Source: Lineavirus I22
Sequence record: NC_001332.1
DNA length: 6,744 bases
Strand: one strand, 5' to 3'
How positions within the stretch are numbered: the first letter of the stretch is position 1; each line of letters opens with the position of its first letter. A program made the translations under genes and the position numbers. This document shows, in pieces, positions 2,354-6,279 of this stretch. A model generated the notes under the pieces. That model did not search any database and was not told the origin of the DNA. It was given only the letters and a program-made list of their open reading frames with translations.

Positions 2354-2596
2354 TGCTTCCCTGTCTTGTCCCTAAGGCTACGTATTGCCTCCCCGTTTAA
2401 ATCGTCAAGCTATAAATCGTGGGGGCCCCATCGCCCTGTTAAGCTGCCTTTTTTCCTGCGATCCTCCCGCCTCTCTGTTGTCTGACGGTCGCAGACGAAC
2501 AGGACGTTACAGCCATTGTTTTTCGTTCTGCTGGCTTCTTTTTTTGGGGGGTGTACTCTTGTTGCAAAATCGCAACGCAGCGGGGGTTAAATCATG

Positions 2597-2672
2597 CTGC
2601 ACGAAAGTCTCACTTTCGGGATTTTGGTTTTTGGATTTCTGCTGCGGAGTCAGGCGGGGCGGGGTGAACGTG
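2597..2672 (+). other. Nested inverted-repeat structure in a G-tract-rich segment; candidate ssDNA origin element (minus-strand priming site)
   Basis: CTGCACG (2597-2603) is complementary to CGTGCAG (2666-2672). Inner hairpin CGAAAGT-ctc-ACTTTCG (2602-2618). G-tracts at 2545-2550, 2582-2586 and 2655-2664. Functional assignment is inference. Confidence 0.3.
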
Positions 2673-2743
2673 CAGTGTATGTAATACTGCAACGTTTGTC
2701 TCAATCTGATACCTCTCTACTAAACGCCTCCTTTCTTTTTAAG

Positions 2744-2754
2744 CTCTTTAATCA
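2744..2754 (+). promoter_or_regulatory. Candidate plus-strand origin nick-site core (CTCTTTAATCA)
   Basis: Resembles the Ff pII nicking region TTCTTTAAT^AGTGG as I recall it (9 of 11 identical), in a T-rich context upstream of gene II. Hypothesis only. Confidence 0.25.
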
Positions 2755-3002
2755 TTTTCTTTTCTGCTAATTCTGTATAGTTTTCAATGACATAGTTTAA
2801 GTGAATCTGTCCATGTGACCTGTACGCCCGTACTTGTACTAATCCTGATCGCAGTATCACTCAGGTTTTTCTTTTTCTCGGTGGTGATACTGGCTGTTGT
2901 CCTAACTGGTTTTTTCATTTTATGCCTTTGAAAAATATAAAGTTTCTACCGAAAATAGGTTTTTAAGCGTAATCTTATTGTCAATAGATGTAAAAATTTT
3001 TG

Positions 3003-3030
3003 TTGCGCACGTTATTTTTCACGCTATCAT
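3003..3030 (+). promoter_or_regulatory. Candidate sigma70 promoter for gene II
   Basis: TTGCGC (3003-3008), 16-nt spacer, TATCAT (3025-3030), about 60 nt upstream of the gene II start in an AT-rich region. Imperfect hexamers. Confidence 0.3.
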
Positions 3031-3052
3031 GCCTGCATTGGATTTCATCTTG

Positions 3053-3070
3053 ATACGTGTATACACGTAT
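3053..3070. promoter_or_regulatory. 18-bp perfect palindrome ATACGTGTATACACGTAT in the gene II leader; candidate operator or RNA hairpin
   Basis: Self-complementary by inspection (core ACGTGTATACACGT, 3055-3068). Ends 9 nt before the SD (AGGG, 3080-3083) of gene II. Confidence 0.4.
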
Positions 3071-3090
3071 ACATCACTAAGGGAATGCGT

Positions 3091-4125
3091 ATGATTGATT
3101 GGGTTACAGCCGTCTTGCCTTGTCTGCATGTGCCTGTTGATGCTGGTCGCGTCCTCTCTGTTGCGCCGGATGGCTCTGTAGAATGGGAATCAGTAAAGTT
3201 TTCCCGCGTTACTGGCTCCTTTCAAAGCTCCATCAGTGTACGTTCGCAGGGTTCTGACGGTAATGGGAAAGCCACTCATTTATACGTTGATGGTAACCCG
3301 TCAAAGTGGTTGCAGGGTCATAATATCGTTGGAAGCGACGATCTCAACGGCCTTATGATTGCTTTTTACGCTCGTATGTTGTCACTACTCAATATACCTC
3401 ACCATCTAGAATCGTATCGTCAGGTGCTTTCTGGTCAGTACGAGCTAAAGCGCGTTGACATTAACTACATGTTTGAGCTTCCTACGCTCATTGATGTACG
3501 GTCATGGTTACATGCTGCTGAGTTCAAGGCTAAGACTCGTCACGGGCGCCCGGCAACTGCAAAGGGCACTCTGTACTTTGGTAAAAATTCTCGCCGTTGG
3601 TCTATTAAGGCTTACAGCAAATATGATGAAGTAAATTGCGGGAAAAAAGCTCATGGCGTTCCCGAAGAAATTAAGAAAACTGGCCTTGTTGAATGGTCTA
3701 AAAATAAATTACGTCTAGAATTAACATTACGCGCATTGCAGCTTACTGATATTAATTTAAACTTTGCTAAAAACTGGTCTACTGAAACTGCATATACTGT
3801 TTTTAAAGAATATATGGGGCGTATCGAAATGAGCGGAAATACTTTACTTACTGATACTCAAGTTATTAATTTACCGTCTGCGCTACGTATGACTTATGTG
3901 TGCTGGAAACAGGGCATTTGTGTAACAGATATGGTATCTCGCGCCACTTATTTTCGTCACCGCAAGGTTTTAAAAGAATTTGGTATTGATATTGCTGTTA
4001 CTGTTGATCGTGTTGATAATAGCAACGTTGTTCCGTTAATCCGTGTCTTAGAGGCTAAACCTGCTTCTATTCCTTCTCAATATGATAATTTAATATTTTC
4101 ATCTAATCGTGTATCAAGTTTCTAA
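3091..4125 (+). CDS. II: Gene II protein (rolling-circle replication initiator/nickase), divergent and shorter than Ff pII
   Basis: 344 aa from ATG 3091 (MIDWV..., compare Ff pII MIDMLV...). SD AGGG at 3080-3083 is 7 nt upstream; the ORF-track ATG at 3085 has no spacer. By-eye motif matches to Ff pII: SKWLQGHNIVGSDDL vs AKVLQGHNVFGTTDL, and NVVPLIRV vs NVVPLVRF near the C-terminus. The rest is poorly conserved; Ff pII is about 410 aa. Confidence 0.8.
   Translation: MIDWVTAVLPCLHVPVDAGRVLSVAPDGSVEWESVKFSRVTGSFQSSISVRSQGSDGNGKATHLYVDGNPSKWLQGHNIVGSDDLNGLMIAFYARMLSLLNIPHHLESYRQVLSGQYELKRVDINYMFELPTLIDVRSWLHAAEFKAKTRHGRPATAKGTLYFGKNSRRWSIKAYSKYDEVNCGKKAHGVPEEIKKTGLVEWSKNKLRLELTLRALQLTDINLNFAKNWSTETAYTVFKEYMGRIEMSGNTLLTDTQVINLPSALRMTYVCWKQGICVTDMVSRATYFRHRKVLKEFGIDIAVTVDRVDNSNVVPLIRVLEAKPASIPSQYDNLIFSSNRVSSF
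3829..4125 (+). CDS. X: pX, in-frame internal start within gene II (C-terminal domain product)
   Basis: In-frame ATGs at 3814 and 3829 (YMGRIEMSGN...) align with the Ff pX start (FEGDSMNIYDD). ATG 3829 has GGGG 7-12 nt upstream; 3814 is the alternative. By analogy only. Confidence 0.4.
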   Translation: MSGNTLLTDTQVINLPSALRMTYVCWKQGICVTDMVSRATYFRHRKVLKEFGIDIAVTVDRVDNSNVVPLIRVLEAKPASIPSQYDNLIFSSNRVSSF

Positions 4126-4135
4126 GGGGTTTTAA

Positions 4136-4462
4136 ATGCACTCAGGTATTCTTATTCGTGGTCGTATTCTCGGTTCTCGCACTGCAAACCGTGATAATAA
4201 TTCGCCGCAACATATTTTAGGCGTTGGCATTCAGAAAGCTGACGGTTTTGGCGGTACGACTCAGGATGTTGAGCAGGTTAAAATTCCTGACCAGCTTGTG
4301 CAAAGCGGCGTTGTTAATCAGATTAATTCGCTTATTGGCAAACTTTGCGAAGTACCGATTAATGTTCGTTCTTGGTCTATGAACGGCAAAAACGGCACTT
4401 CTTACACTCTGTCTTTTGAGTCCGGTATTCAGGAGATTGAAGAGCTGATTTATGTCAGATGA
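4136..4462 (+). CDS. Gene-V-position protein, putative ssDNA-binding protein; no recognisable similarity to Ff/IKe pV
   Basis: 108-aa ORF with SD AAGGGG (4124-4129) about 6 nt before the ATG, immediately after gene II and overlapping the gene VII start. Function inferred from synteny only; the sequence does not resemble Ff pV as I recall it. Confidence 0.6.
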   Translation: MHSGILIRGRILGSRTANRDNNSPQHILGVGIQKADGFGGTTQDVEQVKIPDQLVQSGVVNQINSLIGKLCEVPINVRSWSMNGKNGTSYTLSFESGIQEIEELIYVR

Positions 4463-4949: not shown

Positions 4950-4974
4950 ACTTTAATTCAGCTAAGGTGTAATT

Positions 4975-6279
4975 GTGAAAAGAAAAATAATAGCAATTTC
5001 TTTATTTTTATACATCCCTTTGTCTAATGCTGATAATTGGGAGTCTATTACTAAAAGCTATTATACTGGCTTTGCCATGTCTAAAACTGTTGAATCAAAA
5101 GATCAGGATGGTAAAACAGTTCGTAAAGAGGTTATAACTCAGGCTGATTTAACTACCGCCTGTAATGATGCTAAAGCCTCCGCGCAAGATGTTTTTAATC
5201 AAATGAAGCTAACATTTTCTGGTATATGGCCTGATTCTCAGTTTCGCCTTGTAACTGGTGATACCTGCGTTTATAACGGTTCGCCTAGTGAAAAAACTGA
5301 AAGTTGGTCTATTCGCGCTCAGGTTGAGGGTGATATGCAACGTTCTGTACCAGATGAAGAACCTTCTGAACAAACGCCAGAAGAAATCTGTGAAGCAAAA
5401 CCTCCTATTGATGGCGTCTTTAATAACGTCTCTAAGGGTGACGAAGGAGGCTTTTATATTAATTATAATGGCTGCGAATATGAGGCAACTGGCGTCACTG
5501 TTTGCCAGAATGATGGAACTGTCTGTGCCTCCTCCGCTTGGAAGCCAACTGGTTACGTTCCCGAATCTGGAGAATCTTCCTCCTCTCCTGTGAAAGATGG
5601 TGACACTGGCGGTACTGGTGAAGGTGGTTCTGATACTGGCGGTGATACTGGTGGCGGTGATACTGGTGGTGGTTCTACTGGCGGCGATACTGGCGGTTCT
5701 ACTGGTGGCGGTTCTACTGGTGGCGGTTCTACTGGTGGATCAACTGGTAAATCACTGACAAAGGAAGATGTAACCGCAGCAATACATGATGCTTCCCCTT
5801 CTATTGGTGATGCTGTTAAAGATTCCCTTACAGAAGATAATGACCAGAACGACAATCAGAAGAAAGCAGATGAACAATCAGCTAAAGCCTCTGCTTCTGT
5901 ATCTGATGCTATCTCTGATGGTATGCGTGGCGTTGGTAATTTCGTTGACGATCTTGGCGGTGAGTCGTCGCAATACGGAATCGGTAATTCTGAAATGGAT
6001 CTCTCCGTTAGCCTGGCTAAAGGGCAACTTGGAATTGATCTTGAAGGTCATGGTTCAGCTTGGGAATCCTTTTTAAATGACGGTGCTTTACGTCCCTCCA
6101 TTCCTTCTGGTCATGGCTGTACTGATTTTGTCATGTTTCAGGGTTCTGTTTATCAGCTTGATATTGGCTGCGATAAATTAGGCGATATTAAGTCTGTATT
6201 ATCTTGGGTTATGTATTGCCTTACCTTCTGGTATGTATTCCAGTCTGCTACTTCATTACTTCGTAAAGGTGAACAATAA
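4975..6279 (+). CDS. III: pIII minor coat / adsorption protein
   Basis: 434 aa with GTG start (Ff gene III also starts with GTG). Signal peptide [19 protein letters not shown], Cys-containing N-terminal receptor-binding domains, Gly/Ser/Thr/Asp-rich linker, hydrophobic C-terminal anchor ([15 protein letters not shown]). Stop TAA overlaps the gene VI ATG (TAATG). Confidence 0.9.
5599..5748 (+). repeat. Imperfect tandem 15-nt repeats encoding the glycine-rich pIII linker
   Basis: Repeated GGTGGCGGTTCTACT-like units encoding [50 protein letters not shown]. Confidence 0.85.

What the first reader, a model, noticed from the sequence alone, without database searches (positions are those of the whole stretch)
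3003..3090. 18-bp perfect palindrome between a candidate promoter and the gene II ribosome-binding site
ATACGTGTATACACGTAT (3053-3070) is perfectly self-complementary and lies downstream of a plausible promoter (TTGCGC, 16 nt, TATCAT) and 9 nt upstream of the gene II SD. In Ff, gene II is translationally repressed by pV binding its leader. A perfect palindrome here could be a dimeric-repressor operator or an mRNA hairpin targeted by the gene V analogue, meaning a different regulatory solution for the same circuit.
Basis: partly seen in the sequence, partly recalled or inferred. Interest (0 to 1): 0.5.

Follow-up and report, generated by a model that had tools for sequence, protein, structure and literature searches.

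The report
Repressor operator in front of gene II
The palindrome is real and is most likely the DNA docking site (three 8-bp boxes in a row) for a small, previously unannotated repressor gene hidden in the phage's "intergenic region", which would shut off the replication gene; this is a familiar kind of switch, but not one known in this classical phage.

Summary
The 18-bp perfect palindrome at 3053-3070 is confirmed. It is the core of a 24-bp element (3050-3073) made of three tandem 8-bp boxes, nGTATACn. A wild relative that is 94-98% identical carries it as a perfect 24-bp palindrome. The window matches phage I2-2 in length and gene content.

In every close relative examined, an intact 65-aa gene lies upstream of gene II and points away from it. 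In the window this gene (2918-2720, minus strand) is broken by one extra base that no relative has. Structure models and fold searches place the protein in the ribbon-helix-helix (RHH) class. Its roughly 100-cluster family sat opposite the replication genes in all inovirus loci examined but one.

Box arrays with an 8-bp period (TGnATnCA) occur beside these genes and are absent from relatives that carry HTH-type regulators instead. One Klebsiella relative switched all three boxes to GCATGC and changed the repressor's beta-strand (T8S, T13R), while its gpII and pV stayed 92-94% identical to the window's. The box type therefore follows the RHH protein, not pV or gpII.

Best reading: an operator downstream of the gene II promoter, bound by RHH dimers in the manner of MetJ or ParG. 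The pV/mRNA option is not. This is a new member of a known kind and of moderate interest.

The parts
3050..3073 (.). Operator array of three in-phase 8-bp boxes: TTGATACG, TGTATACA, CGTATACA (consensus nGTATACn; family-wide TGnATnCA).
   Evidence: The same register is found in 17 distinct relative versions. Cores are conserved and the 2-bp linkers vary. L027/L028 carry a perfect 24-bp palindrome. The pZ0117 subgroup has a fourth box. Three of the four GTATAC hexamers in the 6871-nt L028 genome lie here, exactly 8 bp apart.
3053..3070 (.). The 18-bp perfect palindrome of the finding, i.e. the part of the array that is still perfectly symmetric in this sequence.
3003..3030 (+). Candidate sigma-70 promoter of gene II: -35 TTGCGC (3003-3008), 16-nt spacer, -10 TATCAT (3025-3030). 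The inferred start near 3037 would put the boxes at about +14 to +37.
   Evidence: Hexamers confirmed. The TTG and TAT(C/T)AT motifs and the spacing are conserved in relatives while the spacer varies. The consensus scan did not call it. The transcription start is inferred, not shown.
3079..3084 (+). Shine-Dalgarno sequence (AAGGGA) of gene II.
   Evidence: AAGGG is invariant in relatives and lies 6-7 nt before the conserved ATG.
3091..4125 (+). Gene II (replication initiator, 344 aa). This is the regulated gene.
   Evidence: Pfam Phage_CRI E = 5e-78 plus G2P_X_C. The start codon is conserved and annotated in relatives.
2720..2918 (-). Unannotated RHH repressor gene, 65 aa in relatives. Here it is split into two frames by one extra T in the run at 2795-2797.
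   Evidence: Intact 65-66-aa orthologues occur in 24 of 26 protein clusters and in all fetched relatives. Deleting one T restores a 65-aa ORF. The extra base is unique to the window. For the fold.

Best explanation
The palindrome is the core of a double-stranded-DNA operator made of three adjacent 8-bp boxes (nGTATACn, 3050-3073). The boxes lie between the -10 of the gene II promoter and the gene II ribosome-binding site. The proposed reader is a 65-aa ribbon-helix-helix protein encoded divergently at 2918-2720. By analogy with MetJ on tandem 8-bp metboxes and ParG on 8-bp-spaced boxes, one dimer would sit on each box through its two-stranded beta-ribbon (residues 6-12, RTTASIT). Neighbouring dimers would bind cooperatively. 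The coated stretch (about +14 to +37) would block RNA polymerase from clearing the promoter, lowering expression of gene II/X (and V) and hence replication of the replicative form. This would give a low-copy carrier state and immunity to related phages.

Shown here: the box array and its conservation; the gene and its RHH-type predicted fold; the family-wide link between this gene family and 8-bp-period arrays; and one coordinated switch of boxes and beta-strand residues.

Inferred: binding itself, stoichiometry, direction of regulation (repression), and the transcription start.

In this particular sequence the repressor ORF is frameshifted. Either the deposited sequence has an error, which is the more likely reading because all six 1-nt insertions in this region are unique to the window, or this lab phage is a repressor-defective derivative and the operator is unoccupied unless a relative supplies the protein.
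For: (1) Anatomy. The region is three in-phase 8-mers with conserved palindromic cores and variable linkers in 17 distinct relative versions, with a fourth box in one subgroup. The closest wild relative has a perfect 24-mer.

(2) An intact 65-aa divergent ORF is present in all fetched relatives.

(4) Family. About 100 clusters at 50% identity. All fetched distant members except L067 lie divergent from inovirus replication genes, even where the Rep or pV family differs.

(5) In-phase TGnATnCA 3-box arrays beat at least 98% of shuffles in 13 of 18 RHH-linked intergenic regions and in 0 of 5 regions with other regulators. Offset 8 is the top or joint-top self-similarity offset in 8 of 10 RHH loci.

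(6) Covariation. Klebsiella p4 has GGCATGCA GGCATGCC AGCATGCT together with RHH changes T8S and T13R, while its gpII (93.6%) and pV (92.2%) stay close to the window's. L006 has a more diverged RHH overall (74%) but an unchanged beta-strand, and it keeps GTATAC-type boxes.

(7) Precedent. Each MetJ dimer binds one palindromic 8-bp box and repression needs two or more adjacent boxes (PMC3228920). ParG dimers coat arrays of 4-bp boxes with 4-bp spacers in an operator (PMC3130281).
Confidence: 0.65

Rival explanations
1. The transcribed palindrome acts as an RNA hairpin in the gene II 5' UTR. It would either be the target of the gene V protein (an Ff-like translational repression circuit) or a stabilising or translation-modulating structure.
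For: A hairpin of 7-10 bp is predicted in the leader of all I2-2-group relatives, and the 5' GGAUUUC can pair with the SD in several. Pairing is kept in 88.6% of cells, with covariation at the linker positions. Translational repression of gene II by pV is established for Ff (own knowledge).
Against: The fold energy is not unusual (z = -0.86). A hairpin does not require three identical, individually palindromic cores, a fourth box outside the dyad (pZ0117 group), or the non-palindromic direct repeats with 8-bp period found at the same place in UPphi-type phages (TGAACTAC TGAACTCA), which cannot form a hairpin. Box type does not follow pV type. Similar arrays occur with PF02303-type pV. One central pair is broken in half the relatives.
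Confidence: 0.15
2. The operator is a fossil. The repressor gene of this phage is genuinely frameshifted, so the boxes do nothing in I2-2 itself, except perhaps making it sensitive to repressor made by related resident phages.
For: The window's ORF stops after 44 aa, before most of helix B. Box 1 is degraded relative to the wild 24-mer, with TG swapped for GT at 3051-3052. I2-2 is described as a non-integrating, plaque-forming phage (PMC7307601).
Against: All six single-base insertions across 2445-3084 (about 640 nt) are unique to the window and fall in otherwise invariant blocks. This looks like errors in a manually read sequence. Boxes 2 and 3 remain perfect.
Confidence: 0.25
3. The palindrome is part of the viral-strand replication origin, either a gpII nicking or binding site or an origin enhancer.
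For: In Ff the (+) origin lies upstream of gene II in the same intergenic region (own knowledge). Cruciform-prone palindromes are common at origins.
Against: Box type does not follow gpII (93.6%-identical gpII with different boxes). The arrays follow the RHH gene even next to Rep_trans-type initiators. gpII homologues with HTH regulators lack the arrays. A much better nick-site candidate exists at about 2668-2696: a conserved 9-bp-stem hairpin whose loop...TGTAATA, resembles the Ff nick sequence TTTAATA. It is shared with a 56%-identical gpII lineage.
Confidence: 0.04
4. Chance palindrome, or a binding site for a host factor.
For: A perfect palindrome of 18 bp or more arises somewhere in 2.7% of simulated 6.7-kb sequences.
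Against: Position, register and core sequence are conserved across relatives at 74-98% identity. A whole-array switch to GCATGC occurred in one lineage, which a fixed host factor would not tolerate.
Confidence: 0.03

Closest known systems
MetJ repressor and tandem metboxes (E. coli)
   Same: An RHH protein. The operator is made of 2-5 adjacent 8-bp boxes, each itself palindromic, with one dimer per box. [quoted passage not shown] The I2-2 element is three adjacent 8-bp palindromic boxes 8 nt from the SD.
   Different: There is no sequence relationship. The phage protein has no SAM-binding region (65 aa versus 105 aa), so no corepressor is expected. The box sequence differs (TGTATACA versus AGACGTCT). 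Binding is untested.
ParG of plasmid TP228 (OF operator and parH centromere)
   Same: An RHH protein. It binds arrays of short boxes at a regular 8-bp period (4-bp box plus 4-bp spacer) in direct or inverted orientation, with one dimer per box and cooperative coating that represses a promoter (PMC3130281). The only weak sequence hits of the phage family are to ParG. UPphi-type boxes (TGAACTCA) even contain ACTC.
   Different: The hits are below threshold. There is no ParA/ParF partner in a 7-kb phage, so a partition role is unlikely. The arrays are shorter (3-4 boxes).
CopG of rolling-circle plasmid pMV158
   Same: A small (45-aa) RHH repressor that controls transcription of a rolling-circle replication initiator gene and so sets copy number (own knowledge). 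The functional logic is the same.
   Different: copG is co-transcribed with repB and binds a 13-bp pseudo-palindrome over the -35. Here the gene is divergent and the array lies downstream of the -10. There is no detectable sequence similarity (hhalign probability 0.4%).
RstR / ig-2 / rstA module of CTXphi and other repressors of temperate inoviruses
   Same: The repressor gene is divergently transcribed from the replication gene, the operators lie in the short region between them, and allelic repressor/operator pairs define immunity groups (own knowledge). The same slot holds HTH regulators in other gpII-homologue phages (L007, L017-L020).
   Different: RstR is an HTH protein. I2-2-type phages are found as free 6.7-7.2-kb circles rather than dif-integrated prophages.
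Ff pV translational repression of gene II
   Same: The same target gene, and the element sits in its leader.
   Different: The I2-2 pV belongs to another family (PF17426). Box type is uncoupled from pV type. The conserved feature is a DNA-repeat code, not an RNA feature.

Membership tests
Ribbon-helix-helix (MetJ/Arc/CopG) superfamily: the 65-aa protein | Beta-alpha-alpha topology. | tested here: met
   AF2 monomer model: extended residues 1-12, helices 13-30 and 36-62, pLDDT 84.
Ribbon-helix-helix (MetJ/Arc/CopG) superfamily: the 65-aa protein | Intertwined dimer with a two-stranded antiparallel N-terminal ribbon. | tested here: met
Ribbon-helix-helix (MetJ/Arc/CopG) superfamily: the 65-aa protein | Significant sequence match to a curated RHH family. 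| tested here: not met
   No Pfam, NCBIfam or PDB sequence hit passes threshold. Only weak ParG and TTHA0139 hits were found (E 0.05-0.24). The protein belongs to phrog_2503, which is annotated 'unknown function'.
Ribbon-helix-helix (MetJ/Arc/CopG) superfamily: the 65-aa protein | Sequence-specific major-groove DNA binding by the ribbon. | not testable with these tools
   Indirect only: the change of beta-strand residues T8S and T13R coincides with the switch from GTATAC to GCATGC.
MetJ/ParG-type tandem-box operators | Two or more adjacent short boxes at a fixed 8-bp period. | tested here: met
   The window has three boxes and the pZ0117 group has four. Offset 8 is the top or joint-top offset in 8 of 10 RHH-linked regions. 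In-phase arrays are significant in 13 of 18.
MetJ/ParG-type tandem-box operators | One dimer per box with cooperative binding. | not testable with these tools
   Needs footprinting, EMSA or ITC.
MetJ/ParG-type tandem-box operators | The operator overlaps or abuts the regulated promoter. | tested here: inconclusive
   The array starts 20 nt after the conserved -10 in the I2-2 group, and about 8-10 nt after a candidate -10 in distant relatives (read by eye), which also carry a second array further upstream, near the expected -35. The transcription start is not mapped.
Inovirus repressor/operator immunity module (CTXphi RstR type) | Regulator gene divergent from the replication gene, with operators between them. 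| tested here: met
Inovirus repressor/operator immunity module (CTXphi RstR type) | HTH (Cro/CI-like) repressor. | tested here: not met
   The protein is RHH-like. HTH proteins occupy this slot in other lineages.
Inovirus repressor/operator immunity module (CTXphi RstR type) | Matched repressor/operator alleles (heteroimmunity). | tested here: inconclusive
   One matched switch in the close group (Klebsiella p4) and different box types in distant members. No phenotype data.
Ff pV / gene II mRNA translational operator | The element is recognised by the phage's ssDNA-binding protein. | tested here: not met
   Box type is uncoupled from pV type. Arrays occur with unrelated pV families. Direct binding was not tested.
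Ff-type (+) strand origin | Nick-site hairpin and gpII-binding repeats that co-vary with gpII. | tested here: not met
   There is no nick-like sequence in the palindrome. Boxes are uncoupled from gpII. The candidate nick hairpin lies elsewhere, at about 2668-2696.

The most novel reading that the evidence does not exclude
An uncharacterised RHH family found across inoviruses reads a simple 8-bp code (TGnATnCA, one dimer per box). Changes at beta-strand positions 8 and 13 would retarget it (GTATAC to GCATGC), creating immunity groups among plasmid-like filamentous phages of Enterobacteriaceae. On this reading the classical 'non-temperate' phage I2-2 carries, or has just lost, a copy-number and immunity switch hidden in its so-called intergenic region. 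The same symmetric array, once transcribed, would double as a 5'-UTR hairpin that couples transcriptional and translational control of gene II.
Probability: 0.3. Interest if true: 0.6.

Novelty: new member of a known kind. Interest (0 to 1): 0.42.

Why it matters
First, it changes the annotation of a textbook-era phage genome. The "intergenic region" of I2-2-type phages holds a conserved regulator gene and its operator. The deposited sequence probably contains several single-base errors, one of which hid the gene.

Second, it assigns a probable function to a protein family now listed as unknown (phrog_2503, and the unnamed ORFs of UPphi prophages common in urinary E. coli). It also provides a testable DNA code for that family.

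Third, it suggests how small plasmid-like inoviruses, which public databases list as 6.8-14 kb "plasmids" of E. coli and Klebsiella, hold their replication in check and exclude relatives.

The mechanism itself is of a well-known kind: a small repressor with a tandem-box operator in front of a replication gene.

Tried and rejected
- DNA search of the replication module against the phage collection found nothing.
- A protein search found only Dulem virus 58 at 31% identity.
- Pfam, NCBIfam and PDB sequence searches of the small protein gave nothing significant.
- hhalign against CopG gave nothing.
- Rfam gave no relevant family.
- The hairpin at 2852-2892, considered as a nick site, was rejected. 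It lies in the RHH coding region and is not kept by compensatory changes in L006 or L008.
- The invariant block at 2960-2984 was considered as an origin or as the repressor promoter. It has no counterpart in UPphi or Ypfphi loci and no conserved -10, so it is left unexplained.
- The metagenome pattern scan returned mostly unrelated matches. Only L027, L028 and L031 were relatives.
A narrower alignment worked.
- The literature library holds no description of this ORF or operator. The UPphi paper lists the homologous ORFs as of unknown function.
- The original 1992 I2-2 paper was not in the library.

Full report
**Identity of the window.** The ORF map is that of an Ff/IKe-like filamentous phage: genes I, IV, II, V, VII, IX, VIII, III and VI. 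About half of the window (the structural and assembly genes) is 86% identical to phage IKe. The replication module has no DNA match in the phage collection. An identical 6744-nt contig exists in IMG/VR (L004/L040). This composite pattern and the length match what I recall of phage I2-2 (own knowledge). PMC7307601 treats I2-2 as a non-integrating relative of IKe.

**The observation.** ATACGTGTATACACGTAT at 3053-3070 is a perfect 18-bp palindrome and the longest in the window.
- A perfect palindrome of 18 bp or more appears somewhere in 2.7% of Markov simulations of the window.
- The generic promoter scan does not call this promoter because the -35 is weak.
- However, TTG-16 nt-TAT(C/T)AT is conserved in relatives while the spacer varies.
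- Gene II starts at the ATG at 3091, which is conserved and annotated in relatives, not at 3085.

**What the element is.** I collected relatives that carry the same replication module:
- a 14.4-kb E. coli "plasmid" that is a dimer of a 7.18-kb phage (L001);
- a 6.8-kb Klebsiella "plasmid" (L008/L076);
- IMG/VR and metagenome contigs (L005, L006, L027/L028);
- many roughly 7.1-kb circles from sequencing runs.

Seventeen distinct versions of the gene II leader align in one register. After a conserved GGATTTCAC come in-phase 8-mers of the form nGTATACn.
- The window reads TTGATACG TGTATACA CGTATACA.
- L027/L028, which are 94-98% identical to the window genome-wide, read TGTATACG TGTATACA CGTATACA. 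That is a perfect 24-bp palindrome.
- The pZ0117 subgroup has four boxes: TGTATACA CGTATTCA TGTATACA CAnATACA.

The hexamer cores are conserved and the 2-bp linkers vary. For example, L012 has three perfect cores with non-complementary linkers. Three of the four GTATAC hexamers in the whole L028 genome sit here, exactly 8 bp apart. So the palindrome is the still-symmetric part of a three-box tandem array at 3050-3073.

**The missing partner.** In every close relative examined, an intact 65-aa ORF lies on the opposite strand. It starts about 170 nt upstream of gene II.
- It forms 26 clusters at 90% identity. Twenty-four of them are full-length proteins of 65-66 aa (two are 48-51-aa fragments), and most sit on roughly 7.1-kb contigs.
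- In the window the same reading frame (start at 2918, minus strand) stops after 44 aa and continues in another frame to 2720.
- Removing one T from the run at 2795-2797 restores a 65-aa protein.
- An alignment with seven relatives shows six single-base insertions unique to the window across about 640 nt (2445, 2500, 2667, 2691, 2796, 3084). All fall in otherwise invariant blocks.
- This pattern suggests errors in the deposited sequence, but a real frameshift in a laboratory phage cannot be excluded.

**Fold of the protein.** No curated sequence family matches. PHROGs places it in phrog_2503, "unknown function", together with the 60-aa ORF of UPphi-type prophages.
- A profile search of 1.8 billion representatives finds 101 clusters of 50-150-aa proteins. 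Several are tandem duplications.
- The alignment shows a beta-strand/helix/G-turn/helix pattern. The only weak hits are to the RHH protein ParG and to TTHA0139.
- A model of two copies joined by a flexible linker, built with a 46-row alignment, has pTM 0.74 and forms strands at residues 6-12 of both copies.
- I therefore treat the protein as RHH by predicted fold. It is not a member of any curated RHH sequence family.

**Link between protein family and boxes.**
- All fetched distant members (30-45% identity) except L067 lie divergent from the replication genes of inovirus-sized contigs. This holds even where the initiator is Rep_trans-type or pV is PF02303-type.
- Their intergenic regions carry the same kind of array. 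Examples are TGCATAAC TGTATACA CGCATATC just before the SD in L056, and GGCATACA TGCATACA TGCATAGG in L063. L071 has CTGAATAC ATGAATAT CTGAATAC, and L074 has TGTATGCA TTCATTCA TGCATTCA.
- An in-phase three-box TGnATnCA array exceeds at least 98% of shuffles in 13 of 18 RHH-linked regions. It does so in none of five regions where gpII homologues are paired with HTH or other regulators.
- Offset 8 is the top or joint-top self-similarity offset in 8 of 10 RHH-linked regions (0.62-0.88). It stays at or below 0.56 in the others.
- UPphi-type phages have direct, non-palindromic 8-bp-period repeats at the same place (TGAACTAC TGAACTCA), plus two further clusters, one over the predicted -35.

**Who reads the boxes?** Klebsiella p4 gives the sharpest test.
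- All three of its cores are GCATGC (GGCATGCA GGCATGCC AGCATGCT), and these are the only GCATGC hexamers in 3.1 kb.
- Its gpII is 93.6% and its pV 92.2% identical to the window's.
- Its RHH protein differs in the predicted DNA-reading strand (T8S) and at the first residue after it (T13R).
- Conversely, L011 and pZ0117 have a different pV type (72-73% identical to the window's) but keep GTATAC boxes.
- L006 has the most diverged RHH overall (74%) but an unchanged strand, RTTASITT, and it keeps GTATAC-type boxes.

Box identity thus follows the RHH strand, not pV or gpII.

**Mechanism proposed.** By analogy with two RHH systems, I propose that one dimer binds each box and that the dimers bind cooperatively.
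- In MetJ, one dimer binds each palindromic 8-bp metbox, two or more adjacent boxes are required, and sites lie near the start of translation (PMC3228920).
- In ParG, one dimer binds each 4-bp box at 8-bp spacing, and cooperative coating of the OF operator represses parFG (PMC3130281).

The bound array would cover about +14 to +37 of the gene II transcript region. That would impede promoter clearance and lower gpII/X (and pV) synthesis and replicative-form replication. In distant relatives the array begins about 8-10 nt after a candidate -10 (my reading of the sequences), and a second array lies further upstream, near the expected -35. This fits a repressor. Binding, stoichiometry, the sign of regulation and the transcription start are all inferred.

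**Rivals.**
- *RNA hairpin or pV target.* A hairpin can form in all close relatives, and pairing is kept in 88.6% of cells. But its stability is unremarkable (z = -0.86). A hairpin does not explain three identical self-palindromic cores, the fourth box, or the direct-repeat arrays of UPphi, and the pV data argue against it. It may still exist as a by-product or a second layer of control.
- *Replication origin.* Boxes are uncoupled from gpII. A far better nick-site candidate lies at about 2668-2696. In relatives it is a perfect 9-bp stem, ACGTGCAGT / ACTGCACGT, with the loop GTATGTAAT. The loop and stem junction, TGTAATA-CTG, parallels the Ff nick sequence TTTAATA-GTG (Ff sequence from own knowledge). 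The hairpin is conserved in a lineage whose gpII is only 56% identical.
- *Fossil operator.* This is possible if the frameshift is real.
- *Chance or a host factor.* The conservation and the array-wide switch make this unlikely.

**Comparison and novelty.** The element works like a MetJ- or ParG-type tandem-box operator. It sits in the genomic slot of the CTXphi RstR-type immunity module (own knowledge) and has the functional logic of CopG/repB control in rolling-circle plasmids (own knowledge). It is not a member of any of those sequence families. The searched literature does not describe it: the UPphi paper lists the homologous ORFs as unknown, and searches combining inovirus and RHH terms returned nothing relevant. 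I rate it a new member of a known kind. Interest is moderate. It re-annotates a classical genome, gives a probable function and DNA code to an unknown family widespread in inoviruses, and is directly testable, but the principle is familiar.

Noticed in passing
window 2668-2696 (relatives: L028 ~1884-1910, L001 ~4970-4996, L002 1929 and 5489): A conserved hairpin. In relatives it is a perfect 9-bp stem, ACGTGCAGT / ACTGCACGT, with the loop GTATGTAAT, preceded by the invariant CAGGCGGGGCGGGG. The loop and stem junction, TGTAATA-CTG, resembles the Ff gpII nick site TTTAATA-GTG. It is also present in a lineage whose gpII is only 56% identical. It is probably the (+) strand origin nick hairpin. In the window two extra A's (2667, 2691) spoil the stem.
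   Followed up: partly
window 2445, 2500, 2667, 2691, 2796, 3084; also 3051-3052: Six single-base insertions, plus a TG/GT swap, that no relative shares. All lie in otherwise invariant blocks of the intergenic region. They are probably errors in the deposited sequence. The one at 2796 breaks the RHH ORF.
   Followed up: yes
window 2960-2984: The block TTTTTAAGCGTAATCTTATTGTCAA, followed by the also-conserved TGTAAAAATT (2989-2998), lies between the divergent genes and is nearly invariant in I2-2-group relatives, though absent from UPphi and Ypfphi loci. It contains a perfect TTGACA on the minus strand but no conserved -10 at the right spacing. Its function is unexplained; it may be the repressor promoter, an UP element or a host-factor site.
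   Followed up: partly
L001 (NZ_CP098188.1, 14,367 bp) and L076 (NZ_CP132687.1, 6,814 bp): Two records deposited as plasmids of E. coli (from a dog) and K. pneumoniae (from urine) are replicative forms of I2-2-like filamentous phages. The E. coli record is a head-to-tail dimer.
   Followed up: partly
window 4136-4462 versus L011, L001, L009, L076: Gene V is modular. The window and Klebsiella p4 share one pV type (92% identical). L011, pZ0117 and L006 carry another (71-73% identical to the window's), while their gpII stays 87-96% identical. This implies recombination between genes II and V.
   Followed up: partly
L067 (IMGVR_UViG_638275991_000001, 8454 nt) and L066: A contig the size of phage If1 encodes a homologue of the RHH protein (MATPKRTTMAIV...), but the 230 nt upstream show no box array. 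The closely related L066 has the usual arrays next to its replication gene.
   Followed up: no
window 3040-3046 with 3080-3086: In the predicted leader RNA, the conserved 5' GGAUUUC can pair with the SD region AAGGGAU and enclose the palindrome hairpin. This is a possible translational layer, not evaluated further.
   Followed up: partly
proteins P0038, P0045, P0058, P0063, P0071, P0104: Some members of the RHH family are 129-147 aa long with two matched stretches. These are natural tandem duplications that would form a single-chain pseudo-dimer.
   Followed up: no
L007, L017-L020, L022, L025, L002: Other phages with gpII homologues carry different regulators in the same divergent slot: 123-150-aa HTH proteins, a 62-aa phrog_5219 protein, and in L025 a 129-aa ORF of unknown type. 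This is a replaceable regulator cassette next to a conserved replication gene.
   Followed up: partly
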